From the NCBI GenBank assembly GCA_000002445.1, contig CM000208.1, positions 1,056,001 to 1,120,000 of the forward strand: DNA of 64,000 nt, in the 5' to 3' direction. The stretch's first letter is position 1, and each line of letters opens with the position of its first letter. Made by a program: the position numbers and the translations under genes. The notes beneath the pieces were generated by a model, which worked only from the letters and a program-made list of their open reading frames with translations, did no database searches and was not told the DNA's origin. Shown here piece after piece: positions 4,914-47,000 of the stretch. The stretch comes from Trypanosoma brucei (lineage: Eukaryota).

Positions 4914-5603
4914 TCACCATAGACGCCACCATATCGGATAATGACTGGATAAGTCGTATGGGAGTCCATGAGACTTCTGTAACTGTTGTGCACGCCTATA
5001 GAAGTGGCGGTGTGCCACATGACTTCGCTCCTCGTAAATGGTGTGACCAACACCCGCCCCAGCGGCACACCGGGCTAAAACAACGATATTTGCCGAGGCC
5101 GGGACCGGTACCTGATAAACGTTCTGAGAACCAAAGACCCGTTGGCACATCTGCACAAAGTCGGGATCGGATTTGGGAAGGTTAAACGCTGCAACGCCGA
5201 TCGAGGAGAGTGCCTCGCGGCACAACTGAAGAAAAATAAGGGACGACATGAAGGCGGGTGGATCGCTCCCGACAAAAAGATCCACAAAAAGCACGTCGTA
5301 ACACGTCGCCGGTTGTACTTGGTATCGGGACAGCGGCTTATGCTGGTTTCCGTTAGTGGGATAATCACCACCTTTGAAACTCACAGAAGTTCCAGAATGC
5401 GTGCGGCTAGAAACCAATTCATCAAAGGTACTATTACTCTCCCCAGTGCCAGTTGAAGATCCAACAACATCCTGAAGGAAGGCGGCACCGTCCTGAACAT
5501 GACAGGTGACACTCCCGCCTTGCATTTTCCTTCCCCATCCCATGTCTTCAACTGCAGCCCGAAAGCACTGTTGCTCAGCATCAACTAAGTCGCATAATGT
5601 CAT
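4914..5603 (-). CDS. C-terminal portion of a split class-I SAM-dependent methyltransferase / spermidine-synthase-like gene
   Basis: 229-aa ORF. Contains DLVDAE, then ...CHVQDGAAFLQD..., then YDVLFVDLF...LCREAL. These resemble Rossmann-MTase motifs II-IV of spermidine synthase-like proteins. Its ATG overlaps the stop of the upstream ORF (ATGA). Confidence 0.45.
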   Translation of the reverse strand: MTLCDLVDAEQQCFRAAVEDMGWGRKMQGGSVTCHVQDGAAFLQDVVGSSTGTGESNSTFDELVSSRTHSGTSVSFKGGDYPTNGNQHKPLSRYQVQPATCYDVLFVDLFVGSDPPAFMSSLIFLQLCREALSSIGVAAFNLPKSDPDFVQMCQRVFGSQNVYQVPVPASANIVVLARCAAGAGVGHTIYEERSHVAHRHFYRRAQQLQKSHGLPYDLSSHYPIWWRLW

Positions 5604-6463
5604 GTGAGAAATGCTGCTGCGATGAAAGAAGGAGAGAACCCTCCACCAACACCGAGGACAGCGACCCGCAGCCGAGGTAGCGGAGAGGGAAGTAGCAGCA
5701 GAGCACTAAGCATGATGCGCAGATATGGCGCACCTAAATAACTGGCGTCAGCGAGGCAGTTCATTGAGGCCGGTGCCAAGGGGTCGCAGCGAACAAGCGA
5801 TTGTTGCGTGACTCGGTTGCTCCAGCGTCGCAACAAAGCGTCACTGTCATTTCGTACCTCATTATGTGACGTCTCAATAGTCATGGAGGTATATTTAACT
5901 GTACCCGGGGGCCAAGAGGAGGAAGCGATGAACATTGAAGAGCCCACACGATTACCGACGGTATCTTCAACAGCGTCATCATCATCACCGTTGAAGCCCT
6001 TGACGCTACGGGTGGAGACGTCACCGCGAGGTGCGTGTGCATCACCCACAACTTCCCTCACAAGATACAACTCGTTGACCTCTGATACTGAATCACTGTG
6101 GCCAGCAGTGGTGTATGTTTCATTTGAAAAACATGCAAACAGCTTTTTCATGACCCCTCCTCTATCACTGCGTCCACAATTTCCATTTTCGGCATCACTA
6201 CCGCGTGGCAGCAATGATTGTTCCCCTCGCCCCTTTTCCCGGACATAATGATTTGTTACAACAACATCATAACCCAAGAAGGTTTTGCAGGGGTACCGCG
6301 CATGCTCCTCCGAGTGCACAACATCCGCCTCATTAAAGAGTGGAATTTCTCTCTGCCGCAGCAGCGCAATTTCCCGGAAAATACCGATAGCAAATGTACC
6401 ACCAACGCTCGCTGCAATAAACCCCCATGCACGAGCTCCCAGTGGTTTAAAAAAATAGGGCAT
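5600..6463 (-). CDS. N-terminal portion of the same split methyltransferase-like gene (ends in a GxGGG motif-I-like segment)
   Basis: 287-aa ORF ending ...LRVAVLGVGGGFSPSFIAAAFLT*, a motif I-like glycine loop. The stop codon shares the ATGA tetranucleotide with the next ORF's ATG, and there is no intergenic spacer for trans-splicing. Confidence 0.45.
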   Translation of the reverse strand: MPYFFKPLGARAWGFIAASVGGTFAIGIFREIALLRQREIPLFNEADVVHSEEHARYPCKTFLGYDVVVTNHYVREKGRGEQSLLPRGSDAENGNCGRSDRGGVMKKLFACFSNETYTTAGHSDSVSEVNELYLVREVVGDAHAPRGDVSTRSVKGFNGDDDDAVEDTVGNRVGSSMFIASSSWPPGTVKYTSMTIETSHNEVRNDSDALLRRWSNRVTQQSLVRCDPLAPASMNCLADASYLGAPYLRIMLSALLLLPSPLPRLRVAVLGVGGGFSPSFIAAAFLT

Positions 6464-6895
6464 ATTGCCCTCCGGGAGATGTCGCCTAACTTTTCAAAAG
6501 AAAAAAATAGAGGAGCGGAAGTAAATATATGACGGCGCATGTGCAGAGGAAGTTGTACGTAATTCAACTGATGCGGATAACACAAGAGAAAAACATAGGT
6601 TAGTAACACCAACAGAAGCTTACAAACAACACGGCGATAGATGAAGAAGAGATGGAAGAAGGGAAGAAGGGAAGGAGGAAAAACAAAAACAAAAACGCCG
6701 CCGCACCGGCGTCAACAAAACCTAAATAAACAAGGGGGAAAACGTTTTAGCACCGACTGCACCAAATCCAAAACACATCAGTCGCCTTGTCCACTTCCAA
6801 CAAGGCCTTCCACCGAGTAAATCAATTTACGTTCCTTAGACTGAAATGCATGGTTTCTCTTCTCACTACTTTTGGTCACTGTTGCATTTAACCAA

Positions 6896-7942
6896 TTACA
6901 TGACTTTTTTACCCCTCTCTGATTCCTTTGTCGACGTTTCGTTCGGCTTCTCGTCATCCTTACGGACTCGCCACACGATGTTGTAATGCAGTTTTGAGAG
7001 CACCGCCATGGCTAAACGTAGCCAACCGTTAAGAAGAACTTGCAGAAGAAGCTCCAGCACATCAGTGGCCGGTTCCACACCCGCAACCATCCAACAAAGC
7101 AATTGCTTGTCAACACCCAAGCTTACGTCAAAACGATAGTGTTTGATGCTGTCGACAATTTGTTTTGCCATATCCAATGCGGTAACAGGTTCATCGCCAC
7201 CGAAGGAAGAAAGCGCAGTGCATTCCGGACTTTTTCGAATATTCTCCTGCTCGAAGCCGGGCGTGTAGACATCAGGTGGACTAATCACCTGGAACCGGAC
7301 GCCACGGCAGCTGTTTTCCATATCCATGCTGTGGGCAAAGGCCCGAATAGCAGCCTTTGATGCGGCATAAACGGAATACCCGGCAAGTGGGCAGCGGGCC
7401 GCAAGGCTGCTCACAAATACAACGCGTCCGGCACGTTGCTCAAGCATGGAGGGCAGAACCATGCGCAAAACATTTACACAACCGAAAAAATTGACATCCA
7501 TCATCCTTCGTGCCTCTGCAGGAGTAATGTCCACAAACCGAGCGGGAATAGAGAAACCTGCATTGCATACGAGAAGATCAAGACATTTCCCCCCAGCAGC
7601 AGTAACATCCTTCGACACTTTATCCATCGCTTGCTCCACTGAAACCTCATCGGCGACGTCCATAACGACGTATTCCACTTTCGTACCGGTTACTTTGGCC
7701 TCTACTCGAAGTGCCTCAACACCGGCCCTCAGCGACTGTTCATTTCTCGCGGCAATTATTACAACTCGTGCGCCCAGTTTGACGAGTTGCTTCGCCGTTT
7801 CCAAACCGATGCCCAAACTCCCACCAGTTACCAACGCACAGCAACCCTTTATGTGGAAGAAAGGCACTCGATGTACACTCCACCAGGCAGCAGCAAACAC
7901 CAGCGCAATCAGCAGCGCACACACAAGAAATATAACTCCCAT
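6896..7942 (-). CDS. short-chain dehydrogenase/reductase; 3-ketodihydrosphingosine (3-dehydrosphinganine) reductase-like
   Basis: 348 aa with an N-terminal TM segment. Glycine-rich NAD(P) loop ALVTGGSLGIGLE. Catalytic YxxxK (YAASKAAIRAF). PPDVYTPGFEQEN closely resembles the KDSR/TSC10 PPDTDTPGFAEEN segment. The hydrophobic C-terminus matches KDSR. Confidence 0.65.
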   Translation of the reverse strand: MGVIFLVCALLIALVFAAAWWSVHRVPFFHIKGCCALVTGGSLGIGLETAKQLVKLGARVVIIAARNEQSLRAGVEALRVEAKVTGTKVEYVVMDVADEVSVEQAMDKVSKDVTAAGGKCLDLLVCNAGFSIPARFVDITPAEARRMMDVNFFGCVNVLRMVLPSMLEQRAGRVVFVSSLAARCPLAGYSVYAASKAAIRAFAHSMDMENSCRGVRFQVISPPDVYTPGFEQENIRKSPECTALSSFGGDEPVTALDMAKQIVDSIKHYRFDVSLGVDKQLLCWMVAGVEPATDVLELLLQVLLNGWLRLAMAVLSKLHYNIVWRVRKDDEKPNETSTKESERGKKVM

Positions 7943-10900
7943 GGCAGCGACTCAAATAGGCGATGATGCTGGAAGTGGGAAGTACTAGGAAAAAAGGAAA
8001 ATAAAATAAAATAAACTTGGAACAGATAATAAATGCAAGCCTCCTAATAACCTAAATGGAATGCGCAATAGTTTCTTCGTTGGGTTTTAACCCGGCTCCT
8101 AATCTATGGGTATACAAAGGAAGCATGGTAGAAGGCAAACGGTGCAGGGCACACTCGACAAGAGAAATATATATATTTCTTTAAAAAAAAGAAAAGAGGA
8201 GGTGCGTACGTCTCTCTGATCAGAAAATAAAGTCAAAGTCGTGAGAAGATGTGAAAGATGAGTGGGTAAACACCTCCATCACATTCGCTTCGATGAGGAA
8301 TAAACAAGGAAGCAGTAAGGGGTGCAAAAGAGGGAGCAAAAACTAAAAGGGAGAAAGTGATGAAAGAAATGATGGAAGTTGTCCAGAAACACTGGCTGAG
8401 CTACAAAACAGTGGTTTCCAGATGATTAAATCCGGCTCGTATTTATTTATTTTTTTTCCTTGGTTCCGTTTCGTTTCGTTTGGTTTTGTTCCCTTTTCTC
8501 TTTTCTTTCTCTTTTCTTTTCTTTTCTTCAATTTCCCTCCTTTACTCTCTCCCCCCCCCATACTCCTTCAACTCAGTTATTTCCTCTCTACCATTCTCTT
8601 CACTTACGTGCTAATGCCGAACTAAATACAGGCATACACTGAGAGAAGAAAAGGAACGGAGTAATGAAGGGGCCGTGAAAGAAAGGAAGAAATAAAAGAA
8701 AAATAAAAGAAAGAAAGAACAAAAACTTTGCCTTCGCTCCGAGTAAAACAAAAACGTAATGGCAAAAGTTATCGAACAAAAAAAAAAACTCCCCTACACT
8801 CCTCTACAGCAGTGGTGAATAAGATACGCACCACACAAACACACAAAAAAAAACCATATATACTCATTTGTGCGAATCGTTACATCATGCAAACACTTCC
8901 TCATTGTATTTTGTACTTGTGCATTTGCTGTTATTGTCTCTTGTTTTTTCCTCTCGTTTTTCTGCTTTTCTTTTTCTTTTCCTTTTGTTTTGTTTTGTTC
9001 CTTTTCTTTTTTTTTTATTTTCTCAACCTGTCACCTTTCTACCAGTCTGCAGTCATCGATGATGTTAACAATTTCTGTCTCCCCATTGCGTTGGTCATCT
9101 CCCACGCACAAGTAACATCACCAACACATTTTTTCAGATGTGTACACCATTGAGTTTCACGACAAATTTGAAAAAAAAAATTGGAAAGAAGTCAAACATA
9201 AATAAGGTCAGAACTTTTTTTAAAAAAAAAAGCTAAAAAGAATAAAAAGAAAAGTATGAAGGAAGCCACAATACATACAACCTCGCACAAAACACGCACG
9301 AAGAAGGGAAAAGAAATAATCAAAAAAAAAAGAAGGGCGCAGGCAAAAACAAACGTTGTCAAACCTCCAGAGGCAGGTAGGAAAATATACGGTGGTAGCC
9401 GAATTAACGAAACCAGTAAAACAATACTGGTCCTCAATTTTAAAAAAAAATTATAATGATAATGATAAAAACAGTAGATATAACATCAAAACCAAGAGAA
9501 AGGAAGAAAAAAAAAAGAAGAATAAACATGTAAAACTCTCATTACACAAAATACGGCGGGTCCCAAGAGTTCCTGCCCTAATAGCCTGCTTAATTGTAAC
9601 ACCACATTCATTCCTCTCATTTGTGTACGTGCATCTGCTTTCACTTAAGTCAGGCAATCGCTTCTCTGCCAGTGTGAAGATGATAATTAATAATAATAAA
9701 TAATAATAACTGGAATCAGTATTAGCACTATTGGTAATAGAATATGCGTGACATCATATTCCTATTTCACGCTAGCGCCCCAATATCTCATACTACTTTA
9801 TATAGTTGCCGCTACTAGTCACTACTAATTATTATCATTATTATTGTAGCACTTCACTCTTATACTGACTCTTTCCTCCTTTTTCCCGCTCTCTTTCTTC
9901 AATACGTCCCTCTAGCTTCTCCTCTTCTTTTTGGGTTTTCATTCATTTTTTTTATTTTTTCGTTTTGATGGGGATGATTTTAAACCTTTAAAACATACAC
10001 ACACACACACCACAAACTACTTGTTCGTCACCAACCATTTATATTTTTTTTTTCCAACCATTGGACAAATCACTATGCGCTGCTGCCATTATGCTAATAA
10101 ATGCTTTACCTTTTACTCATTGCTCAGTTTGTTCGCTTGTTTCTTTGTTTGTACTCATTTTACTTTTGTTGTTGTTATTTTATTTTCATTTTTTTTTTCC
10201 TCCACTCGAGGTCTACCTTCACTTTTCACCCTTTTTGTTAATCCCTAAACACAAATAAAAGGCAAGGAGAGCAGAAATCAACACCAAATATTTTCTTTTC
10301 AAAAAAAAAACAAAAAAGAAAGACCTCCTTTACTCCTACATAATATTTTCTCTTCACATTCATTTGGATCTCCTTTCATTTTCTCTTCTGTCACCGCACT
10401 TCCTTTTTTTCTTTTCCTTCTTCTAACATTGAATTGTTTCGATCCAGTTTTTTTTTTTTAAATATTTTCATGAGATAATACAACACGATATATCTCTTTT
10501 AATATACGAATATGAAATTGCTCACTTTTTGTGCTTTTCCCCATTCTATGCACTTCATTTTTATTACGCATTCATAAATGCACACACAAAAGTGTCGTAT
10601 TCCGCCCTCAGCGACACATGCGGTTACAACAGCGGCGGTCAAAAGGAAGAAAAAGTAAAAGTAAAGTAAAAAAAAAAAACGAAATCACACAAAAACAAAT
10701 GCCAGCATAAACCCCCGCAGATATAAATTTATACAAGTTAAGAAAAAAAAAAGAATGCAGACGACCTGGAAAGTTTAAAAAAAAAACATTCCTTCAGATG
10801 CGGTTCAGAACACGAGAGGAAAAGGAGAAAGGGAGGAATGAGACACACACAAACAGCAACAAAAGAGAAAATAATAGAGTAAAAGAATAAATTGAAAAGT

Positions 10901-12219
10901 CCTACTGCCGTCCACACAAAGTAATGTGGTGAAAGGATCCCTAAAAGCAAACAAGTGTTTTGTAAAGTCACCCATGGAAAAGTGATACAACAACAAGTGA
11001 AGGTAACAAACCTTCACAGCCCCAACACAACATGGAACTCAGGAACAGTAGAGCAAAAAAAAGAAAAAGAAAAAAGAAAAAAGAAAGAAAATGCCTTAAA
11101 GCGTCGGAACAAACAAACTAAAGTGTGGTATCACCTCACCGTTCAAGTTGTTGCTGTGGCCGTACGCTCCCAACATGTCTTTCCTTTCCCCTTCTCTCTA
11201 ATGTGATCCATCTATCCCCATTCTCCGTTCCACACACACACAAGAAAAAAAAGAAAAAAACGCCACCAAAAAAAAGCCTCCCACCCCTTCCCCCCCCCCC
11301 GCCTCCGGGAACTTCATCGCTAAATAATAAAATACCGCTGCGGACTCTACTGACAAAGTGGGGAACCGGCTGCTTAAGAACTGCACCATTTCTTGACCAT
11401 TTTTTTTTTCCTTTGAACTCTGTTGTTTTGTTTCCATCTCCTGGGATTGTCGAAAAAACGGGAGCGAATACATGGCATATGAAATATTGAAGCGAATATA
11501 TTTATATATTTTATATATGGCAAGAGCATTGAGGTAATGTAAGAAGGTGATTAATTAGAAGGAAAAAGAAAACAAAGAAACAAACACACGTGTACGAAGC
11601 ACCACAGTCGCGCCTTCCTATAGCCCCAGATCCCAGTCCCCACCCAATTCACACAGTTCCTTCTTATCGTACTCTACATTAAATGAAATAAATAAACAAA
11701 TAAAACGAACCGCATACATCCCTTTGTCCTTTTTGAGGCCGTTTATTTAAATCCATACCCCCGAGTACCTCCAAAACAGGGTGTCCTCATATCCCCCTCA
11801 CAGCAAGCGAACATATATAAAGATAGATGAAGGTAAATACATTATTGATATAGCGCTTACGTAACTCGGGACGGCACTTTTGTCCAAATGCACCTCCCTC
11901 TCGTATGGTGTCGGAGATGGAAAGTGTTTGAGAAGGAGAGAAGAAAAAAAAAAGAAAAAAAAGATCCCGCATTACATTTAAGGATTTTAATGTGCTACTA
12001 CCACCGCGTTCACCAGGGAGAGGAAGGGAAAACGGTGTAAAATCGTACAACAAGGGGAGGAATACACAAAAACGGTACAAATCAAACAAATGGGAGACGG
12101 AAGGGAGTGGGAAGTCTAAGGGGATAAATTATATATATATATATATACCCTCGCAACCACGCCATAACTAATACGGAAAGAAAAAAGGAGGAAGAGCGCA
12201 ACGCATGCTGCTATTATTA

Positions 12220-13893
12220 TTACTCCTCGCCCTGCGGGGGCACGGTGCTGGGCAAAAACTGTATGTTGGTTTCCTTCTTTATTTGATCCATAACGTCCAA
12301 CGCGAACTGCAAATCAGCGCGGGTGTGAGCAGCAGAAACACAGAAACGAATGCGGCACCCCAGTAGTGGAGTAGCGGGGTATCCAACAATCACAATAGCA
12401 AGACCACGGCGCATGCATTTCCTCCACACGGCAATTGCTCTCCCAAGATGGTAAAGCATTACGGGAACGACGGGGGAGGCGTCATTACCAAGGACAGAGA
12501 AACCACGATCGATCAAGCCCTGGCGGAAAAATCGTGAATTTTCCATCAGTTGCTGTATGTGCTTGGGTCCAATGTCGGTGCCATCATTACCGTTTAGGAC
12601 GTCAAGCACAGAGAGAGCCTGCTGAGCACAGGGAGGAGAAAGCGTATCGCAGTGAAGCGCTAGAGAGCTGTGAGTTCGGATGTGGTCAATTACGCTCTGG
12701 TCCCCAGCAAGATAACCGCCAATAGCCCCGAAGCTCTTGGTGAAAGTCCCCATGAGAATATCCACGTCACGCGGGTCCACACCGAAGTGCTCCGTTACGC
12801 CACGCCCCGTACGACCAGTTGCACCAATAGAGTGAGCCTCATCGACAAAGAGCAGGGCACCGTACTTTTTCTTAAGTTCAACAACACGAGGAAGATTAAC
12901 AAACTCTCCCTCCATACTATAGACACCCTCAACGACGATGACAATGCGGGTCCATGGCACGTATGCGCCCTTTGGATTCTGCCCGAGCACAACCGCCTCA
13001 CGGAGCACCTTCTCCAGGCTGTTCATGTCAGCATTCTTGAATACCTTGGCGCGGGCACCAGATAACCGTATGCCGTTAACGAGCGAAGAGTGGTTCAAGC
13101 TATCGCTGACCACAAGTGTATCCTCACCAAACAATGCAGGAAGACCACGAAAGTTTGTGCCGAAGCCCATCCCACACACAACAGCGTCCTCCTTCTTTAA
13201 AAAGTCTGCTATGGCACGCTCAAGTTTAGAAACTGGACCATGCTGACCAGCGTGTTGGGCGGCGCTGCATGAAGCAAGACCATAGCGATCTAAGCTGTTA
13301 AGCACCTCACGAGTAATATGGGGTATATCATCCGCAAACCCAAGGTAGTTGTATGACGAAAGGTTAACGCATGGTTTGATATTTCCAGTGAAGGAAAAAG
13401 TTCTATTGGAGTCCGTCGAAACCCGCTCCATCACACCAATCACACGAGACGGACGTGAGTCAATCGCATGGTTGAAGCAGTCACGCGCACGGCGGTAGAA
13501 ATGATTCTGCCAGAAATATTCGAGGAAAGTAAGCAGAGATGCATATCCCTCACGCTGCTTCCTTTTTGCGCCAAATAACTTCCGGCGAAGCTCGGCAATG
13601 CATCCAAAAGTGAATAAAAGTAAAAACGTGAAGTATGTCATTACCACAGAAATAAATGGAATGCTTTTGTGCTCCTCCTCCTGGTGCGTCACCCGCTTCG
13701 GCTGAGTATGCGTCCCCACACTTTCCTTTTGACATATCGTGTCCGTTGCACCATTTGCTGCAAAACTCGCCCGAACCGAACCTTGTTTATTGTACGCCTC
13801 GTCACAAGACTCGGCTTCAGTTACTGCCTTGTTCGCAACAACGGCACCCCGAGGTGCGTCTAAGAAATTCTCCGCCTCCACGTAAGTAGGCAT
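12220..13893 (-). CDS. SPT2: serine palmitoyltransferase subunit 2 (LCB2), PLP-dependent alpha-oxoamine synthase
   Basis: 557 aa with an N-terminal TM helix. PLP-lysine motif GTFTKSFGAIGGY. Conserved SMEGE, LFVDEAHSIG, GYPATPLLGCRIRFCVSAAHT. Confidence 0.8.
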   Translation of the reverse strand: MPTYVEAENFLDAPRGAVVANKAVTEAESCDEAYNKQGSVRASFAANGATDTICQKESVGTHTQPKRVTHQEEEHKSIPFISVVMTYFTFLLLFTFGCIAELRRKLFGAKRKQREGYASLLTFLEYFWQNHFYRRARDCFNHAIDSRPSRVIGVMERVSTDSNRTFSFTGNIKPCVNLSSYNYLGFADDIPHITREVLNSLDRYGLASCSAAQHAGQHGPVSKLERAIADFLKKEDAVVCGMGFGTNFRGLPALFGEDTLVVSDSLNHSSLVNGIRLSGARAKVFKNADMNSLEKVLREAVVLGQNPKGAYVPWTRIVIVVEGVYSMEGEFVNLPRVVELKKKYGALLFVDEAHSIGATGRTGRGVTEHFGVDPRDVDILMGTFTKSFGAIGGYLAGDQSVIDHIRTHSSLALHCDTLSPPCAQQALSVLDVLNGNDGTDIGPKHIQQLMENSRFFRQGLIDRGFSVLGNDASPVVPVMLYHLGRAIAVWRKCMRRGLAIVIVGYPATPLLGCRIRFCVSAAHTRADLQFALDVMDQIKKETNIQFLPSTVPPQGEE

Positions 13894-14511: not shown

Positions 14512-15618
14512 CTAGGCCGCCTTCGGTCGTTTTGAAGCCTTTGACGGGTGGGCCGCAGATGTCTCGGTGAAAGTTATCCCTGGTTGCCAGCGCGAGTGTA
14601 GGCGATCGTAGGACCATCGAAGGAACATGTCATCTATGCAACCGCAGTATCCCTTCGGCAACCCTGACCAACAATGGCACAATGCGGCCTTCTCTGTATC
14701 TCCCTCTTTCATGTCTACAATCTTTGCTTCGTCGTTCCCGGGTAAACCAACCTGGTGGCCAATGCTCAGTTTAGGACGGGGGTTTAGCGCGAGGTTTACT
14801 GGAGACAAATCAGGGCACATCGTGACGCCCTGCAGCACAGGAGCGGTATTGCCAAGGCAACGTGGAGCTCCCTTTTCTACCAGCCACTGGATCACTTCCC
14901 TGTCAGCAAGTGCCAAAGCAGCATGCAGGGGCGTGCGACCCCAGCGGTCGTACACAATGAGGCTTCCACCTGCGCTATGTAGTAAATTCATCATAGCAAT
15001 ATTACCTGTTATGATGGCAACAAACATGGGGCTGTAGCCATGCCGCATCTGATCCAGAGTAGCAAAGGGTTCGCTGAGGAAGCTCATTTCATTTGGGTTC
15101 GCCCCCCACTCAAGACACCGTTCGGCGAGGGCAATATTCCCTGTCAAGACCCCCAAGAGCAGAAATGTAGCACCACGATAAAGTGAATCACCTCGTTTAT
15201 CGCATAACCCAGGCAGCTGATCCTCCAAGAACTTGCCGATAGACTTCACCGGTAGGTTAATGTCGTTACCGCGTGCACCCGAGGGATTATTCGAATTGGT
15301 ATTAGTACTAGTAGGGCCGTCGGTTTTGTTGTAGATGTTGGATAGTTTGGCGAGGTCCTCTGCGATTGCTCCCTCATGTGCCCCGCCCAGTACAACCTTC
15401 CCTTTACGAATGACTTGAAAAGACTCCCATGATATGGCAGGGGCAGTTCTGAATGAACGCAGAACGCAAGGACCCGAATACTCGCATGCGGCGCCAGTGG
15501 AAACAATGTTACTGTCCATGGAGCTGTGTACCCCTTCTGTTCTGTACCACTTACACCCCTGGTAGTCGTTTGATCCACGTAACTCTTCACTGGGAAATGG
15601 TTCACCAACTTGTTGCAT
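14512..15618 (-). CDS. ankyrin-repeat protein
   Basis: Ankyrin repeats are visible (GRTPLHAALALADREVIQWLVEKGA; MFVAIITGNIAMMNLLHSAGG). The track ORF starts at a GTG at 15660, and the first ATG (MQQVGEP) is at 15618. Confidence 0.6.
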   Translation of the reverse strand: MQQVGEPFPSEELRGSNDYQGCKWYRTEGVHSSMDSNIVSTGAACEYSGPCVLRSFRTAPAISWESFQVIRKGKVVLGGAHEGAIAEDLAKLSNIYNKTDGPTSTNTNSNNPSGARGNDINLPVKSIGKFLEDQLPGLCDKRGDSLYRGATFLLLGVLTGNIALAERCLEWGANPNEMSFLSEPFATLDQMRHGYSPMFVAIITGNIAMMNLLHSAGGSLIVYDRWGRTPLHAALALADREVIQWLVEKGAPRCLGNTAPVLQGVTMCPDLSPVNLALNPRPKLSIGHQVGLPGNDEAKIVDMKEGDTEKAALCHCWSGLPKGYCGCIDDMFLRWSYDRLHSRWQPGITFTETSAAHPSKASKRPKAA

Positions 15619-16100
15619 CAAACAATTTATGTAGTCCCCTGCAACGCGAAGTAAGCGCACACTATATTTAAAGTGGACTTATCCGCTTTGCTTGCAGGTT
15701 CACGTTCCGATTTTATTCCTTCTTGATCGAAAGAACTTTTAACAGTGGTGCAACAGCTAACTTCTAAACAGTTTGTTATTACCCTTAAACCAACTGAATA
15801 GCTTGCCAATAAAACGGAAGAGGTAGAAGTGAATCAAGTGTACTGATGACCAACGAAACGCAATTCACCCCGCCGTGCATCACCCTGACAAGGATTTGAA
15901 AAGGGGGGGAAAGAAGTGAAAAAAAAACTAATTGGCGGTATTCACAAATTCATACAAATAAAACGAAAATTAAAATATCAACACACAAAAAAGTGATGTT
16001 CGCAACTCGGTACGGAAGGCGGCGCAGTGGCTCTTAAAACCAGAACAAACAAGACCGCTTGGGAGTTTACCACCTACATGACCTCCACCACTCATCTTTG

Positions 16101-26221: not shown

Positions 26222-27835
26222 TGTGCTACTGGAAAGGGAGGCTGCCATCGAGTATTGGAAAAGACGAAACAGAAGAAGGAATGAAAGCAAATTATGGTCA
26301 GAGAGGTTTCAAAAGAGTCCCCAAATAGAAAATGGAAAGTCTACAGAAGCGACACAACCCCCGACGACAATGTGGAAACAGTTATCTCAGTTGGCAAGGA
26401 GGAGAAGTCCATCCAGCCACACAAACAAGTGGACACAGTACCACCACCAACATTACCACCATCCAGCACTTCACGAGCAGTTTGGGTAGCGTCTCCACCT
26501 TCTCGTTTATTGCGCTAGTCAGGGGACGAAGAACAAAATCGGGTCCCGCTCTTTGAGTAAGCATGTATAAAGCAACATTACCGTTCCAGAGAAAACTGTT
26601 ACCGTTGGTGTGTGGACAAGACGGGACGAACAGGGAAAAGATAAGCTCAACTCTACGTGACTCCTCACGCACTAGCAAGACACATCACGATATATATATA
26701 TTATTTATTTATTGATTTATTTATATATTCTGAAACATAACCAGTTGGTCAGCACCGTTAAAACATACCCCATTTGTTTGTTCCCCCGGTCGCAACTAGT
26801 TACAAACACCACAACATTGCAGCACACCTCACATTACACCGAGTTGCAGTGGCGTGCCGATACGTGCCACATTTCACTTCATGGAATCACTACTTTCGGG
26901 AGCAAAGCCACTGAAGAAGGTCGTCACGTCCAACCAGCCGACGGCTTTGTGAGGCACAGTACAGACGGATGTCGACAAACCAAACGTATCTTTTTTTTTT
27001 CAGAAACAAACAAAATTTCACCTGGGTGCCGCCGGATCGAGCAGCCTGCACGTTGATTAAACAATTCAATAGCTCCTAAAGGGGCAGTGGCCAAAAACAT
27101 TACCATTTGCCCACATACTAAAATACTTGGGCACTTCCCCTTTCCTATAGCGCCCTCGGGGCGTGGTTCGGCAGACGGTAAAACTTTTAAAAAATCCTTA
27201 AGTAATGAAGAGAAATCCAATGAGGGGAGGAAACGGTGTATGAAACGTATTGCTCTTCTCACTTTGCCCCTTGCTCACTTTCTTCCCATATCCGCGGAGA
27301 GCACCAACGAACATAGAGGCGCGAAAATACAAGTCAGCGAAAGTGATTTGCAACAACATACCACATCATTCTTCTTCGCACGTTAATACCACAAGAACAC
27401 AAACATGGGGGAGCGAGTTATATCGCTCAGGAGGTAGACGGCTGCGACGACATCGCAGTACAAAGAGTTGGACGGCAAACCAAGGTTGAAAAATGAGAGC
27501 GAGAAAGGGCATGCGTACTTACATTTTTTCCAACACCAACCAACCTCCTATTTTTCCTATCCCTGAACCCCAGCCGTCATTCCCAGTAACAAAAACTTGC
27601 CGATACTTAACCGCAGACTCCCTACCTCTGCATTCCCCCAACAACACACACCACACTAGCCCTGTTGCAGTGCTACGCAGCAGTTGCCAAGGAGAGACCA
27701 CGTAAACATACTCACTACCCACATCACGATAAAAAAGAAAACAACTAAACTTTATACCTCACTCTAACCACCCAACCCCCGGCTGGCTTGCAACTCCAGT
27801 GATGCAATCATCCACTGCCACAGTGCAGTTGATAG

Positions 27836-41155: not shown

Positions 41156-43256
41156 AACTGAAAGGGGGAAAGCCTCCTATGTCCACAACCCGCGCTCGCA
41201 ACCAACCACCCGAGATGTAGGTATATGTTGTCGGGCGTGCAGGTGAATTCTACCCCACCCAACTTTCCAACTCCTATACAAGTCAGATGACGCGATACTG
41301 AGTAAGCTGGTTCAGAGATGGGAAAGAAGCCACACATATGCAATATGCTAACGCATACAGAAGACAAATGCATTTGTCAAAAAAAAAAAAAAATGCAATC
41401 AGACAATTTATGTGAACAGTCCTTTTCAGGGAAGCAAAAAAGTGACTAGAATGGAAACGTTATCGAAAAGAAACGAAAAGCCGAAGAGCACTCGGCAAAC
41501 AAACACCTTCTGTATATGCATAATATGCGCAGGGGTAGACCTCGCCGACTGAATTCACCCCCTTTACCGATATAATGTCAACTCAGATTCGGCTTCCAAC
41601 AGGATACGAAACCTCCCTTAAAGTGTGCTGAAACCTTCATGACAGACGACGACACAAAAAAAAAAAAAAGACATTCTACTTGTCATCATCAGGAAGCTTT
41701 GAAACTCCCCCGTCATACAACACCATTCTTCCTTCAATTAAGAACACGGTGCTATTGTTCAACGTAAACGACATCCTCCTATTCCACTTGAACGACACGA
41801 TGACGCGGATTCCCAACACGCGCAGTCCACAAGTGTCAGTCACAAGAACGGCATAGGTTTAATCCAGCAAGTGCATACAAAAACACACTTAGCTTTACCA
41901 TTTTGTATCTTGCATTGAATATAACCCTACAACAAAAGTTTTTCAAAATAGGGGGAAAATGCAAGTGTAAAAAAAATATGTACAAAGACACGATAAAAGT
42001 AGCCTCAAATTAAAAAAAAAATAAACTCATGATCAGACGTGTTGCCATCGACATGCAGATATAGCAATATAGATATTTTTCTTTCCAGCACCTCTTACCA
42101 CCTTTCTTGACAACGTTTATATCTTAGTAGCACCTTCAGTCTTTTGAATATAGCGTCACCCATTAAGAATAAACCAGAGGAATAGTTCGTGGGAGACCGG
42201 CTCTTCACTGACGGTGGCAGCAAAAATCCTGCTACCCAAACGAGGAAGTAGATCACATATTAGTAAACGCAAGAGGCTCTATTGTTTAAAAACTGTTCCA
42301 AGCACAACAAGTTTGTACTACAAGTCAGACCTCTTCCCCCTCCCCCCGGAAAAGAAAAAAGAAAAAAGAAAAAGAACAACAGTAAGGGAAAAGAAAGAGG
42401 GAAAACTCAAACACATTACCCCCTTCACACGAACACGCACACAGAGACACGCAAAAAGGAGGCGCTTTCATCAGCCGGAAGAAGAAAGACAGGGAACCTT
42501 CGTCACCATCCATTCCACGGTGATCCGGCATTTCCATTTTTAGAATGTATTACATATGGGTCCCCACCTTCCTGTGGATGGACGAAGCAAGCTAGTTCAC
42601 CACAGACGTGAGACAAGGTAAAACACCTGCAGCGCTTGGCGTCAGCATTGAAAATGAAGTTCTGCACGCGATACGCACATTGCCATTACCTCTCCTTCTC
42701 TACGTTGCCTCTTTGGCAAGCTCACCCATGTGTGTATTTCAGCGCAAGCAACGCCATGCCATCCATCCGACAGTCTTTCTGGTCCTTTTTTTTTTTTTGC
42801 GTTGTTATTTACTTACCTCTAACTACCTCGTCTGGTTTACATCAAACAGTGCCGTCCTCCACTCTTTTTTATCTCCACCCTGCAAGTGTTGTTATCACGG
42901 ACACGTCCTTTTCACTTCACGCTGTCCTCTTACTCTTGTTTTCTCTCTTTATACAGACCACGTCCTTTTTTTTCTTCTCTTACAGCCCCGCACAGAAAAT
43001 GCCTCAGTGAAGCCAGCAAGCAAAAAACAAGACAACCCCGACACCAACTAGCAACTTTCATAGCATCGCCTTTCCCCCTTCTTTCGTCCATAGAATGTTC
43101 ACTTAGATAATATAAATTGTAGGAAGTTAATCAGTTTTAGATCGCGCAATCCCCTATAACACCATCTCCTTTCCGTATTTTATCATTCGTCCCCACATGT
43201 TGGAGGAGTATCACCCAATTCAAGTAATTGAATGCGCCCTCGCTCCGTCATATTTT

Positions 43257-44000: not shown

Positions 44001-47000
44001 AGCCACAGATAACGTAATGAAATTGATAATCACTGGCACAGATAAGAAATTCCCAAGGGGAAACAGTACCCTCCTAACCTGCAAACACTGACAAGTGCTC
44101 TTTGTGTCGCTCACCTACTCTTCAATATCAAGTTAACATCAATAAAATATGTAACATACGAAGCGTCGGGACCGAAAGTCAAATATATATATATATATAT
44201 TATCATTATTATAACAGTGTTAATTATGCCAGAAACACTGCATCCCTCGAAAATTTGCAACCGAGTAGCGGAGTTTTCAAGAACGAAAAATCTAATAACA
44301 GTTTCACACAAAAAAATCATAACAACGTATCATACAAAACAATCAAGAAATAAAAGAAAACAACATTCATTTCGTTAAAGTTTGCTTTGGTGATTAATAT
44401 ATTAACAATGGAGTAAATGAAACTGTACATCGAAATAAACCCCACCATTTATGGGTGAACGATAAGTCTACTCATCAAAACATAATAACCAATGCCTCAG
44501 GGTTGGGTAAGTACAATATATACTTTCACACCTCCTCACCGGGGACTGAATGAACTAAACGATCGTTACTCCATCCCACCTTCACGTAACAGCCAAACGG
44601 AAATTCATCGGCATAAGCTAAAGCTGTTATTGCTAACGTGGAGCCTGCAGATAGCAAATCAACCGCTAAAACCCCAAAAAGATCACCGTCAGATAAGGCC
44701 TAACACAAGACCATACCATGCCTGCGGAGCACGTGTTCGAAAGTAGATGACAGCTACATTTTCTAAACCACCTGATATCTACATACATGACATCGTCCAC
44801 ATTCACATGCACGAAAAATGATCAGCGACAACACGGTCCCAACAGCGCGGAACCAAAGGCCCAAAGATGTCTAACAGGAAAAAAGGTTTATTACGGTCAA
44901 AAGAAGCAAGACAATACTGGTGAAAAAATAGGGCGTGACATCAATCCTACAAACGTATAAATATCGAGGCGGCACCTTTAAGCAATAAAAGGGTGGCTTC
45001 GGTGAAAATACACATCATTGTTTCGCCGGACAAACATGCTAACTTAGCACGCACACGCGCTCATACACACATAGGCATGTCGGCCCAGTATAAACAAGCA
45101 GACATCGGTTGTTCCGGGTAAAATGTTTATAATCAAATATGAAAAAAAATAAACGAAACATGGAAAGGAGGGTCCTGAGATAAAATTCGTCTCAACAAAG
45201 ACCCATCCACCAAGCTCCCGAATGCACTATGTAACAGAGTTACTCTAGTTACCGGCACGCGTGCTTACACGAATGTTACGTCCATCCTTTTGAGTAGTTA
45301 CTCACAAAGAAGACGACACCTCCACAGCACCCAGCCGGGAAATAACGGGGTCAAGATAAATAGAGATGCTTAATTTTGAGCGGGCATGAGTATGATCACA
45401 AAAACAATCCGTTAGCGCATTTTCAAATAGCAAACGTCCGTAAGGGCGCAACGAAGCCGTTGGCAGCAGTCAACAGCACATATGCATTTATAAATCTCCG
45501 AAAATAGAGGAATTACATCAACTAGGCCCATTTTGACAGACACAGTGGACCACGCGCTTGGCCGCCAGCTAACAAACGAGCGATAGGCAGCATTCTTTTG
45601 ACTTCCCATTCTTCCACCAGGGCCTCTGGCGGCGCCCGCCCACATGAAAGTTGGATGCCACGGCAACTATATCCTACGAGGTTGAACTCCCCGCAATGCA
45701 GCGAGTCTTGTAGGAGCGAACCCCCAGTAAGGTCCACGGTTCGTAGAACAACTGCTCTCCCTATTCATTTGACATTCGTTCCACTCCGCCCACGTCAATG
45801 AACGACAAAAGGTAGCCTCTGACATTGCTCAAATGACAAGAACAATTCTTTAGTGTTTTTTTTCTGAGAACATACACCACGCTAAATTTTTCTTTTTAAG
45901 TGCTTCATACACGAACTTGCCACTTTTGGCGAAATAGTACAACGGAGCCTCAACGATGGTTCCACAAATTTTTTTAAAAAATGGGCAAAAAAAAAATGTC
46001 AACAAGATGACGGCCAAATACACGAAAATGAGTGAGCCGCTTCCACGGGCACAGACAAACAAGCTGCCAGAAAGGAACAGAAGTCAGCCGCCCAGCCGAA
46101 CCTCCTCCACATCACCCAGACACTTTTTTGAGGCGGCTGCACTGCACGACCTAGAGTCCGCCCTGGTCTACAGTCGAAAGATGTACGGGGCAGCGCCAAA
46201 CCCTTGCCAACATTAATGACTACTGAAATGCGGGGAAACCTTCCGGCCGGTACGAGAGCGTGTCCCCAGGAGATTATTCATAGGGACAAAGTGGACTTCT
46301 GCCTTTTTCAGGGAGACACGCACGAGGGTCAGAGGAAGCACCCTGTCAAACGACCATGGTCACCGGTTCATTGGTTCTGAGTGCCCCAAAACGAACAATT
46401 GCGACGGGTCAGTGCCCGTTTGGGATGGAGTCGCCGCGCAGTTGAGATAGCTGAGACGGGTCAGGCTTTGGACGGCATGGTCGCTACGCAGTGCTCCCAA
46501 ACAATCAGCAGCCAGTTGTGACATCTGTCTCCTTCCCCCAAGGTCCCGGAAATTCGTAGGGAAAGTTCAGGGTGACTTTTCGAGAACCAAGACACGGAAA
46601 TAATCACAGCAGCGGCAAAACTTCACCACGCTGCCAGAGATTCCCCCGTTCCGGGACATGCAGACAGCAAGCCGATAGCAGATTGATGACTAGAACAGGG
46701 CTTTGCGGTTGGCGGCAACGGGCCCCGAACCGGACTGAAATAAGTATAAGTCTGCGCCTTTCCCATGGAATTTATCCCCTTTTTTTTCCACTGCGAGACG
46801 ACGGCGAGCCAAAATCGGGTGAACCCTGGACCGCGCTAACAACCAGATCATATTCTGTTTAACGGTCAGGGGCGCTGCTAAAGAAAAGGATTGTGTATTA
46901 TGAACGCCAAATGACCCCGTCCCCGCGGGTGTAGTGAAGGAGAAAAGCGAAATGGCAAATGCCCCTGAGCAAAGTGCGGTTGAGGCAAAGAAAAAGGGCT

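What the first reader, a model, noticed from the sequence alone, without database searches (positions are those of the whole stretch)
6896..13893. Two consecutive sphingolipid-biosynthesis enzymes (SPT subunit 2, then 3-ketodihydrosphingosine reductase-like SDR) are neighbours in the same polycistron
LCB2 is clearly identified by its PLP-lysine motif. The downstream SDR has the KDSR-specific PPDxxTPGFxxEN segment plus the TM anchors. SPT and KDSR catalyse steps 1 and 2 of sphingoid base synthesis. Co-directional adjacency of sequential pathway genes is unusual in a genome with no promoter-level gene control. It may reflect co-processing or co-regulation through the shared long intergenic/UTR region.
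Basis: partly seen in the sequence, partly recalled or inferred. Interest (0 to 1): 0.5.

Follow-up and report, generated by a model that had tools for sequence, protein, structure and literature searches.

The report
Neighbouring sphingolipid genes in Trypanosoma brucei
The first two enzymes of sphingolipid synthesis really are encoded by neighbouring genes in this Trypanosoma brucei segment, and have been since before parasitism arose, but both genes are already annotated and public data show they are expressed as separate, differently controlled messages.

Summary
Window 12220-13893 (minus strand) encodes serine palmitoyltransferase subunit 2 (LCB2, Tb927.10.4050). Window 6896-7942 (minus strand) encodes a short-chain dehydrogenase that belongs to the 3-ketodihydrosphingosine reductase (KDSR) subfamily, Tb927.10.4040. 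The window is T. b. brucei TREU927 chromosome 10.

[quoted passage not shown] It is absent from two more distant euglenozoan-like contigs and from two other eukaryote contigs.

The proposed mechanism, co-regulation through a shared long spacer, is not supported:
- The spacer varies from 281 to 4277 bp between species and shows no conserved sequence.
- Published T. brucei data give a 5.8 kb SPT2 mRNA, so the spacer is essentially its own 3'UTR.
- The KDSR mRNA is a separate 1.5 kb message with a 161 nt 5'UTR and a 294 nt 3'UTR.
- Bloodstream half-lives are 26 and 11 min. Procyclic ribosome densities are 18 and 2.7 per kb.

Both annotations are already public, and the Leishmania pair has been remarked on in print. 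Three-gene colinear blocks with Bodo are background. Selection for matched transcription remains possible but untested. Interest is low.

The parts
12220..13893 (-). SPT2/LCB2 coding sequence (557 aa), Tb927.10.4050
   Evidence: Human SPTLC2 (6m4n_B) matches at E = 8.8e-135 and 453 bits over residues 32-540. SPTLC1 scores 156 bits and KBL 197 bits. Pfam Aminotran_1_2, E = 1.1e-44. The protein is 100% identical to the T. equiperdum serine palmitoyltransferase. TbLCB2 = Tb927.10.4050 (PMC5519370). ORF length 1674 nt matches.
12727..12747 (-). PLP-binding lysine motif TFTKSFG (residues 383-389, Lys386)
   Evidence: Regex match. Motif definition from PMC5964470. Aligned with human GTFTKSFG.
13588..13668 (-). 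N-terminal hydrophobic (membrane) segment of SPT2, residues 76-102
   Evidence: Kyte-Doolittle 19-residue mean of 2.09. Aligns with the membrane helix region of human SPTLC2.
8104..12219 (-). Spacer between the two genes, low G+C (0.37) and rich in polypyrimidine tracts. It is mostly the 3'UTR of the SPT2 mRNA (inferred).
   Evidence: The published SPT2 mRNA length of 5824 nt minus the 1674 nt ORF leaves about 4150 nt of UTR. No Rfam match. No novel transcript is listed here by Kolev et al.. No conservation with other species. The only tandem repeats are short low-complexity ones. The exact poly(A) site was not available.
7943..8105 (-). KDSR 5'UTR (161 nt, 7943-8103), preceded by the AG splice acceptor at 8105-8104
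   Evidence: The 5'-UTR length of 161 nt for Tb927.10.4040 comes from Antwi et al. 2016 Table S2. An AG lies exactly 161 nt upstream of the ATG, behind a pyrimidine-rich stretch (sequence).
6896..7942 (-). KDSR (3-ketodihydrosphingosine reductase) coding sequence, 348 aa, Tb927.10.4040
   Evidence: Pfam adh_short, E = 3e-49. The exact sequence equals EAN77824/XP_822652 and Q38BJ6, named 3-dehydrosphinganine reductase. 34% identity to primate KDSR over residues 31-332, E = 1e-42. The kinetoplastid profile scores 204 bits on the mammalian KDSR representative P0189, against at most 116 bits for any PDB SDR. Listed as '3-Ketosphinganine reductase', ORF 1047 nt, in PMC4845500 tables.
7805..7828 (-). 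Coenzyme-binding motif TGxxxGxG (TGGSLGIG, residues 39-46)
   Evidence: Sequence. G40, G41, G44 and G46 are invariant in 24 kinetoplastid orthologues. It is a defining motif per PMC6148460.
7355..7408 (-). Catalytic Ser179 ... Tyr192-x3-Lys196
   Evidence: Aligned with human KDSR Ser173, Tyr186 and Lys190. S179, Y192 and K196 are invariant. Asn151 aligns with human Asn145.
7241..7279 (-). KDSR-subfamily segment PPDVYTPGFEQEN (residues 222-234)
   Evidence: Aligned with human PPDTDTPGFAEEN. Motif statistics.
7865..7942 (-). N-terminal hydrophobic anchor of KDSR (residues 1-26)
   Evidence: Kyte-Doolittle mean of 2.92. Predicted helix 2-22.
6989..7102 (-). C-terminal hydrophobic/amphipathic helices of KDSR (residues 281-318)
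   Evidence: Kyte-Doolittle mean up to 1.62. Predicted helices 295-305 and 307-331. This region aligns with the C-terminal part of human KDSR.
6602..6895 (-). KDSR 3'UTR (294 nt), with the major poly(A) site at about 6602
   Evidence: Kolev et al. 2010 Table S13 gives Tb10.70.3240 a PAS at chr10:1,062,602 and a 3'UTR of 294 nt. With a window offset of 1,056,000, this gives 6602 + 294 = 6896, the ORF end. The offset is confirmed by Tb10.70.3150: 1,083,335 + 1070 gives window 28405, which is the ORF end.
14512..15660 (-). Ankyrin-repeat gene directly upstream of SPT2. It is part of the three-gene block conserved down to Bodo saltans.
   Evidence: Pfam Ank families. tblastn orthologues sit directly upstream of SPT2 in L001, L002, L004, L010 and L012.

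Best explanation
The two genes are true orthologues of the first two enzymes of sphingoid-base synthesis. SPT2/LCB2 is the PLP-bearing catalytic subunit of serine palmitoyltransferase. KDSR is the membrane-anchored, SDR-type, presumably NADPH-dependent reductase of 3-ketodihydrosphingosine.

They lie next to each other in one RNA polymerase II polycistronic unit of T. brucei chromosome 10. That unit starts at the divergent strand switch at about 44-48 kb of the window. They are released as two separate trans-spliced and polyadenylated mRNAs. The 4.3 kb spacer is essentially the SPT2 mRNA's own long 3'UTR. The KDSR mRNA has a 161 nt 5'UTR and a 294 nt 3'UTR.

Adjacency can therefore give the two genes the same nascent transcription and nothing more. 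Their mRNA decay and translation are set independently.

The neighbour relation is old, dating at least to the common ancestor of Bodo saltans and the trypanosomatids. The simplest account is that it is a historical neighbourhood kept by the general colinearity of kinetoplastid genomes, not a specially regulated two-gene module.

Shown here: gene identities, gene order in other species, non-conservation of the spacer, and the separate transcripts with their different kinetics (the last from published tables). Inferred: co-transcription, the exact SPT2 poly(A) site, and that the adjacency is neutral.
For: Identity of SPT2: (453 bits to human SPTLC2, against 156 bits to SPTLC1).

Identity of KDSR:
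- The profile of 24 kinetoplastid orthologues hits about 330-aa eukaryote proteins over their full length. These are named 3-dehydrosphinganine reductase/K04708.
- Among them is the mammalian KDSR representative P0189, at 204 bits. The best PDB SDR reaches 116 bits.
- BLASTP to primate KDSR gives E = 1e-42 over residues 31-332, with the catalytic residues and PPDxxTPGFxxEN aligned.
- A vertebrate KDSR HMM scores the window protein 152 bits over model positions 26-344. The median for generic SDRs is 73 bits.
- An NJ tree puts the kinetoplastid clade with the eukaryote KDSRs.

Synteny.

Separate mRNAs and kinetics:
- Lengths are 5824 nt and 1507 nt.
- Bloodstream abundances are 2.47 and 2.48 copies per cell, with half-lives of 26.25 and 10.58 min.
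- Raw read ratios rise from 1.1 to 4.4 over 20 min of actinomycin D.
- Procyclic abundances are 2.19 and 6.91 mRNAs per cell. Ribosome densities are 18.05 and 2.65 per kb.
- The 5'UTR is 161 nt and the 3'UTR 294 nt.

Spacer: variable length and no conservation, no Rfam family, and no novel transcript.

Background synteny: patches of 2-3 genes, with colinearity persisting over 3-5 genes, are typical between Bodo and trypanosomatids (PMC2621209).
Against: - A 2026 preprint reports that co-pathway enzymes sharing an L. major transcription unit lie closer together than random pairs. Selection on this pair therefore cannot be excluded.
- Steady-state bloodstream mRNA numbers are nearly equal (2.47 against 2.48 per cell). 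This could reflect tuning rather than coincidence.
- In the bodonid-like contig L012 a duplicated SPT2 copy stayed next to KDSR, which hints at a unit that is kept together.
- KDSR activity of the kinetoplastid protein has not been measured in any paper I found.
- Bootstrap support for the KDSR clade in my simple NJ tree is only 54%. No other eukaryote SDR subfamilies were in that tree.
Confidence: 0.65

Rival explanations
1. The adjacency is kept by selection. In an organism without gene-specific promoters, sitting side by side in one transcription unit gives SPT2 and KDSR the same nascent transcription. The reductase then keeps pace with the synthase and the intermediate 3-ketodihydrosphingosine does not accumulate.
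For: - Gene order is kept from T. brucei to Bodo saltans, while both flanks differ.
- The duplicated SPT2 in L012 remains beside KDSR.
- The preprint 10.64898/2026.07.29.740908 reports enrichment and closeness of co-pathway genes within L. major transcription units, and expression gradients along those units.
- Bloodstream mRNA copy numbers are equal.
Against: - Blocks of 3-5 colinear genes are the normal background between Bodo and trypanosomatids.
- The block also contains an unrelated ankyrin-repeat gene.
- Half-lives differ 2.5-fold and ribosome density about 7-fold, so output is not matched by position.
- SPT1, the obligate partner of SPT2, is on another chromosome (Tb927.4.1020).
- The adjacency is absent in L013, L014 and L003.
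- About 2 adjacent co-pathway pairs are expected by chance (my estimate).
Confidence: 0.25
2. The long shared spacer/UTR couples processing of the two mRNAs, so that their abundances are co-regulated.
For: In trypanosomes, polyadenylation of an upstream mRNA is generally coupled to trans-splicing of the next gene (established knowledge). The SPT2 3' end must therefore lie near the KDSR splice acceptor at 8104-8105.
Against: - This coupling applies to every neighbouring gene pair and does not set mRNA levels.
- Spacer length ranges from 281 to 4277 bp, with no conserved sequence.
- The half-lives are different, as are the procyclic mRNA numbers, 2.19 against 6.91.
- Tb927.10.4050 is listed among transcripts uniquely upregulated in one RNAi line of PMC7952579. 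I did not search that table for Tb927.10.4040.
Confidence: 0.05
3. The SDR is not the reductase of 3-ketodihydrosphingosine but an SDR of another specificity. On this reading the pathway adjacency is only apparent.
For: - Against solved structures the single sequence and the profile hit generic SDRs first. Cryptococcus TSC10 (8jat) ranks 7th and 4th.
- Foldseek against PDB returns generic SDRs.
- No biochemical test of the kinetoplastid enzyme was found.
Against: - TSC10 gives the longest alignment of the PDB hits. Fungal Tsc10 is itself only 24% identical to human FVT-1 (PMC6148460).
- An exhaustive search gives full-length matches to KDSR-named proteins, at 190-280 bits.
- The mammalian KDSR representative scores 204 bits.
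- The motif PPD..TPG is absent from 81 generic SDR hits.
- The vertebrate KDSR HMM matches over the whole length.
- The N- and C-terminal hydrophobic segments match the human enzyme.
Confidence: 0.05

Closest known systems
Human KDSR (FVT-1, Q06136) and the eukaryotic 3-dehydrosphinganine reductase family (KEGG K04708)
   Same: - SDR core with the TGxxxGxG motif.
- Asn/Ser/Tyr/Lys aligned with human N145, S173, Y186 and K190.
- The PPDxxTPGFxxEN segment.
- An N-terminal hydrophobic anchor and C-terminal hydrophobic helices.
- 34% identity over 302 residues.
   Different: The activity has not been tested for the kinetoplastid protein. In my tree the kinetoplastid sequences form their own clade, sister to the other eukaryote KDSRs. 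In the two other eukaryote contigs examined, KDSR is not next to an SPT gene (L008, L009).
Human SPTLC2 / yeast LCB2 (catalytic SPT subunit, alpha-oxoamine synthase family)
   Same: E = 8.8e-135 to SPTLC2 over residues 32-540. It has the PLP-lysine motif and an N-terminal membrane segment.
   Different: The N-terminal 75 residues have no counterpart. The partner SPT1 is encoded on chromosome 4.
L. major LmjF.35.0320 (LCB2) / LmjF.35.0330 (3-dehydrosphinganine reductase) gene pair
   Same: Same two genes, same order and same strand. The paper itself notes that both belong to the sphingolipid pathway (PMC9539739). A Leishmania locus shows the same layout (L001).
   Different: The spacer is 3.8 kb with G+C 0.52 in the Leishmania locus, against 4.3 kb with G+C 0.37 here. 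There is no sequence similarity between the two.
Adjacent co-pathway genes in trypanosomatid transcription units (preprint 10.64898/2026.07.29.740908)
   Same: Two enzymes of one pathway sit side by side in one polycistronic unit that is otherwise functionally mixed.
   Different: The preprint's claim is statistical and concerns L. major. I did not check whether this pair is listed in it. For this pair, the post-transcriptional measures are not matched.
Bacterial sphingolipid gene clusters (spt with neighbouring pathway genes; from my own knowledge, not tested here)
   Same: The first and a later step of the pathway are encoded side by side.
   Different: Those are true operons with one promoter and a polycistronic mRNA that is translated as such. 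Here each gene yields its own capped, polyadenylated mRNA. Both proteins are of eukaryotic type.

Membership tests
Serine palmitoyltransferase subunit 2 (LCB2/SPTLC2) | [quoted passage not shown] | tested here: met
   Aminotran_1_2, E = 1.1e-44. TFTKSFG at residues 383-389. Motif definition from PMC5964470.
Serine palmitoyltransferase subunit 2 (LCB2/SPTLC2) | Closer to LCB2 than to LCB1 or to other alpha-oxoamine synthases | tested here: met
   453 bits to human SPTLC2, 435 to Arabidopsis LCB2a and 395 to yeast SPT2. By comparison, 197 bits to KBL and 156 to SPTLC1.
Serine palmitoyltransferase subunit 2 (LCB2/SPTLC2) | Membrane segment near the N-terminus | tested here: met
   Hydrophobic stretch at residues 76-102, aligned with the corresponding human segment.
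Serine palmitoyltransferase subunit 2 (LCB2/SPTLC2) | Forms an active heterodimer with LCB1 and condenses serine with acyl-CoA | not testable with these tools
   According to the review PMC5964470, reduced SPT expression makes procyclic T. brucei non-viable (Fridberg et al. 2008, cited).
3-ketodihydrosphingosine reductase (KDSR/FVT-1/Tsc10) | SDR with TGxxxGxG and the catalytic Ser-Tyr-Lys (plus Asn) | tested here: met
   TGGSLGIG at 39-46. N151, S179, Y192 and K196 align with human N145, S173, Y186 and K190. Feature list from PMC6148460.
3-ketodihydrosphingosine reductase (KDSR/FVT-1/Tsc10) | Groups with characterised KDSRs rather than with other SDR subfamilies | tested here: met
   - 204 bits to the mammalian KDSR representative P0189, against at most 116 bits for any PDB SDR, including 17beta-HSD entries.
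- The vertebrate KDSR HMM scores 152 bits over the full length, against a median of 73 for generic SDRs.
- The NJ clade with eukaryote KDSRs has 54% bootstrap. No other eukaryote SDR subfamilies were in that tree.
3-ketodihydrosphingosine reductase (KDSR/FVT-1/Tsc10) | Subfamily segment PPDxxTPG(F)xxEN after the catalytic region | tested here: met
   PPDVYTPGFEQEN at residues 222-234. PPD..TPG is found in 32/32 kinetoplastid and 99/119 vertebrate KDSR sequences, and in 0/81 generic SDRs.
3-ketodihydrosphingosine reductase (KDSR/FVT-1/Tsc10) | Hydrophobic membrane anchors (N-terminal and C-terminal in human FVT-1) | tested here: met
   Hydropathy segments 1-26 and 281-318. Predicted helices 2-22, 295-305 and 307-331. 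Topology description in PMC6148460. This is an in silico result only.
3-ketodihydrosphingosine reductase (KDSR/FVT-1/Tsc10) | NADPH-dependent reduction of 3-ketodihydrosphingosine; complements yeast tsc10 | not testable with these tools
   No paper in the library reports this for a kinetoplastid enzyme.
Co-regulated two-gene module (operon-like unit) | The two genes are expressed from one mature mRNA or share a regulatory UTR | tested here: not met
   There are separate mRNAs of 5824 and 1507 nt. KDSR has its own 5'UTR of 161 nt and 3'UTR of 294 nt. The spacer is not conserved.
Co-regulated two-gene module (operon-like unit) | Matched expression beyond that of other neighbours | tested here: inconclusive
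   - Bloodstream mRNA numbers are equal, at 2.47 and 2.48 per cell, but the half-lives are 26.3 and 10.6 min.
- Procyclic values are 2.19 and 6.91 mRNAs per cell, with 18.05 and 2.65 ribosomes per kb.
- The neighbours 4010 and 4060 have similar read densities.
- Only two life stages were examined.
Co-regulated two-gene module (operon-like unit) | Adjacency conserved beyond background synteny | tested here: inconclusive
   The order is kept in trypanosomatids, Bodo saltans and L012. It is absent in L003, L013 and L014. Background colinear blocks with Bodo span 3-5 genes.

The most novel reading that the evidence does not exclude
The three-gene block ankyrin-repeat protein - SPT2 - KDSR is the only part of this neighbourhood shared between Bodo saltans and the trypanosomatids. 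On this reading it is a selected unit. Position in the transcription unit fixes an equal transcriptional dose of synthase and reductase, which avoids build-up of 3-ketodihydrosphingosine. The ankyrin-repeat protein would then be a so far unrecognised partner of the pathway.
Probability: 0.12. Interest if true: 0.5.

Novelty: already known. Interest (0 to 1): 0.2.

Why it matters
If the adjacency were under selection, it would be a concrete, testable case of gene position standing in for promoters in an organism without gene-specific transcription control. It would also concern a pathway that is studied as a drug target in trypanosomatids.

As things stand, both genes carry these names in public annotation and in published tables. 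The Leishmania pair has been pointed out in print. Public expression data show that the two messages are handled independently.

What this work adds is modest:
- The neighbour relation reaches back to free-living Bodo saltans.
- The long spacer is the SPT2 3'UTR and is not conserved.
- The KDSR assignment stands on profile and motif evidence, but still lacks a biochemical test.

Tried and rejected
- Foldseek against the AlphaFold database was not available. Foldseek against PDB gave only generic SDRs and cannot separate subfamilies.
- The single-sequence and profile searches of PDB did not put TSC10 first. I therefore relied on the exhaustive profile search plus names and on a reciprocal vertebrate KDSR HMM.
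It served only to fetch real database entries: P0283, and P0402 = NP_002026. All comparisons used those entries.
- I considered a bacterial origin of the pair as an operon remnant and rejected it, because both proteins match eukaryote homologues best. The bacterial 570-580 aa hits are two-domain SDRs whose single domains score only 58-75 bits.
- I looked for something hidden in the spacer. Rfam found nothing and there are no tRNAs in the window. Only short low-complexity repeats were found. There are no blastn or tblastx matches to other species' spacers beyond chance-level runs, and no novel transcript in Kolev's complete list.
- The upstream gene of L003 is not SPT2.
- The SPT2 poly(A) site and splice site could not be read. 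The relevant Kolev tables are cut in the held copy, the Nilsson supplements lack the genes, and the Siegel supplements are not held.
- Searching papers for Tb927.10.4040 in main texts found nothing.


Full report
**What is there**

The interval is bounded by two minus-strand ORFs. One of 557 aa lies at 12220..13893 and one of 348 aa at 6896..7942, separated by 4277 nt of low-G+C sequence. The window is Trypanosoma brucei brucei TREU927 chromosome 10:
- The 348-aa protein is identical to EAN77824/XP_822652 (UniProt Q38BJ6).
- The 557-aa protein is 100% identical to the T. equiperdum serine palmitoyltransferase.
- Two published poly(A) coordinates place the window at Tb927_10_v4 1,056,001-1,120,000 (with ORF ends).

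All large ORFs from about 44 kb down to position 1 are on the minus strand, and a divergent strand switch lies at 44.1-48.4 kb. Both genes therefore sit in one polycistronic unit. SPT2 is upstream and the SDR is the next gene downstream.

**SPT2**

Pfam gives Aminotran_1_2 at 1.1e-44. Human SPTLC2 matches at E = 8.8e-135 and 453 bits over residues 32-540. Arabidopsis LCB2a and yeast SPT2 follow. SPTLC1 reaches only 156 bits and glycine C-acetyltransferase 197 bits.

The PLP-lysine motif TFTKSFG is at residues 383-389, and a hydrophobic segment is at 76-102. The literature names Tb927.10.4050 as TbLCB2 (PMC5519370).

**The SDR**

Pfam sees only adh_short (3e-49), and NCBIfam models all stay below their cut-offs. 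Against solved structures, generic SDRs come first and Cryptococcus TSC10 ranks 7th. With a profile of 24 kinetoplastid orthologues it ranks 4th, but with the longest alignment. A predicted structure (pLDDT 84.9) matched only generic SDRs in the PDB. The AlphaFold library was unavailable.

The decisive tests were these.
- The kinetoplastid profile was run against 1.84 billion representatives. It gave full-length matches (profile positions about 5-335) to proteins of about 330 aa.
- Wherever those proteins carry a functional name, it is 3-dehydrosphinganine reductase or K04708. Two others carry only transcript identifiers, from Entosiphon and Salpingoeca.
- The representative of mammalian KDSR (P0189) scores 204 bits over positions 18-334. 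No PDB SDR exceeds 116 bits with the same profile, 17beta-HSD entries included.
- BLASTP against primate KDSR gives 34% identity and E = 1e-42 over residues 31-332. That cluster contains human NP_002026. N151/S179/Y192/K196 align with human N145/S173/Y186/K190, and PPDVYTPGFEQEN aligns with PPDTDTPGFAEEN.
- An HMM of 91 vertebrate KDSRs scores the window protein 152 bits over model positions 26-344. Generic SDR hits have a median of 73 bits and match only the core.
- PPD..TPG is present in 32/32 kinetoplastid and 99/119 vertebrate KDSR sequences, and in 0/81 generic SDRs.
- A neighbour-joining tree places the kinetoplastid sequences as sister to the other eukaryote KDSRs (54% bootstrap). It did not include other eukaryote SDR subfamilies.
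- Hydropathy and the model show an N-terminal anchor (residues 1-26) and C-terminal helices. These resemble the topology described for human FVT-1 (PMC6148460).

The enzyme activity itself has not been reported for any kinetoplastid in the papers I could search.

**How far the adjacency goes**

The order ankyrin-repeat gene, SPT2, SDR is found in:
- a Leishmania genome (L001) and T. cruzi (L002);
- an unnamed trypanosomatid contig (L004);
- the free-living Bodo saltans (L010; SDR 44% identical, E = 2e-95);
- a bodonid-like metagenome contig (L012), where a second SPT2 copy, 88% identical, follows the SDR.

With Bodo only these three genes are shared. Both flanks differ.

The adjacency is absent from two contigs with more divergent SPT2 genes (L013, L014), where a protein of 1100-1200 aa follows. 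It is absent from a contig with two KDSR paralogues (L003). It is also absent from two other eukaryote contigs (L008, L009).

The pair is therefore at least as old as the Bodo-trypanosomatid ancestor. This is weaker evidence for selection than it looks. Jackson et al. found that Bodo and trypanosomatids typically share patches of 2-3 genes, with colinearity persisting over 3-5 genes (PMC2621209). The conserved block also includes an unrelated ankyrin-repeat gene.

The rest of the transcription unit is functionally mixed: RING finger, NIF phosphatase, enoyl-CoA hydratase, coiled-coil and unknown proteins.

**The spacer and the proposed co-regulation**

Spacer length is 4277 bp here, 3807 bp in Leishmania, 1392 bp in T. 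cruzi, 881 bp in L004, 840 bp in Bodo and 281 bp in L012. blastn and tblastx find nothing beyond chance-level low-complexity runs. Rfam finds nothing, and there are only short simple repeats. The complete list of novel procyclic transcripts of Kolev et al. has no entry in this stretch.

Published tables give the two transcripts as follows.

| | SPT2 (Tb927.10.4050) | KDSR (Tb927.10.4040, '3-Ketosphinganine reductase') |
|---|---|---|
| mRNA length | 5824 nt | 1507 nt |
| ORF | 1674 nt | 1047 nt |
| Bloodstream mRNAs per cell | 2.47 | 2.48 |
| Bloodstream half-life | 26.25 min | 10.58 min |
| Procyclic mRNAs per cell | 2.19 | 6.91 |
| Procyclic ribosomes per kb | 18.05 | 2.65 |

The SPT2 length leaves about 4150 nt of UTR, which can only be accommodated if the spacer is its 3'UTR.

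The KDSR 5'UTR is 161 nt. This lands exactly on an AG at 8105-8104 behind a pyrimidine-rich stretch. Its 3'UTR is 294 nt, with the poly(A) site at window 6602.

The raw read ratio SPT2/KDSR rises from 1.1 to 4.4 within 20 min of actinomycin D in two series. SPT1, the obligate partner of SPT2, is on chromosome 4.

Thus the two genes share at most their nascent transcription. Decay and translation are set separately, and nothing points to a shared regulatory element.

**What is already known**

- The names are in UniProt and NCBI records and in published T. brucei tables.
- For L. major a paper states that the neighbours LmjF.35.0320 and LmjF.35.0330 are LCB2 and 3-dehydrosphinganine reductase, both of the sphingolipid pathway (PMC9539739).
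- A July 2026 preprint claims that co-pathway enzymes tend to be adjacent in L. major transcription units, and that expression declines along the units. From its numbers I estimate about 9,000 co-pathway pairs and roughly 2 adjacent pairs expected by chance. A single such pair does not stand out on its own.

**Verdict**

The adjacency is ancient but within background colinearity, and the suggested mechanism is not supported. The most likely account is a historical neighbourhood of two separately processed and separately controlled genes (confidence about 0.65). Selection for equal transcriptional dose remains a live but untested alternative (about 0.25).

Noticed in passing
window 4914-6463 (minus strand): The gene just downstream of KDSR is a single ORF in T. 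cruzi (470 aa), Leishmania (497 aa), T. b. gambiense and T. equiperdum (517 aa). In this TREU927 sequence it is split into ORFs of 287 and 229 aa that overlap by ATGA at 5600-5603. This is a frameshift, either strain-specific or an assembly error. Its read counts are also the lowest in the neighbourhood.
   Followed up: partly
L012 3367-7954: A bodonid-like metagenome contig has the order SPT2 - KDSR - SPT2. The two SPT2 copies are 88% identical and flank the reductase gene.
   Followed up: partly
L003 1494-5188: A metagenome contig carries two KDSR paralogues (348 and 343 aa) separated by an NHL-repeat gene. No SPT2 lies upstream. In the tree these paralogues group with the Bodo-type sequences.
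   Followed up: partly
protein P0125 (Pythium oligandrum, 645 aa): This protein has two SDR domains in tandem. Each is nearest to the other and falls within the KDSR group, which suggests an internally duplicated KDSR.
   Followed up: no
window 14512-15660 (minus strand): An ankyrin-repeat gene sits directly upstream of SPT2 in every kinetoplastid locus examined, including Bodo saltans. The listed ORF starts with GTG, so the true start is probably a downstream ATG.
   Followed up: partly
window 26372-27196, 41410-41926, 44226-44870, 45016-45922 (minus strand): With the window offset of 1,056,000, four 'novel transcripts' of Kolev et al. 2010 (Tb10.NT.46 to Tb10.NT.49) fall at these positions. 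Two of them lie right at the edge of the divergent strand-switch region.
   Followed up: no
window 44114-48439: This is a divergent strand-switch region. Genes to the left are on the minus strand and genes to the right on the plus strand. GC skew changes sign here. No tRNA genes occur anywhere in the window.
   Followed up: no
window 12220-13893 versus 6896-7942: In procyclic forms the SPT2 mRNA carries about 30 ribosomes (18 per kb) and the KDSR mRNA about 3 (2.65 per kb). SPT1 also has only 3.4 per kb. SPT2 is thus translated unusually densely for this pathway.
   Followed up: no
proteins P0033-P0037, P0160, P0192: Bacterial and metagenomic proteins of about 570-583 aa with two SDR domains were the best non-kinetoplastid hits of the word-based search. 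Their single domains score low against the KDSR HMM, so they are not close relatives.
   Followed up: partly
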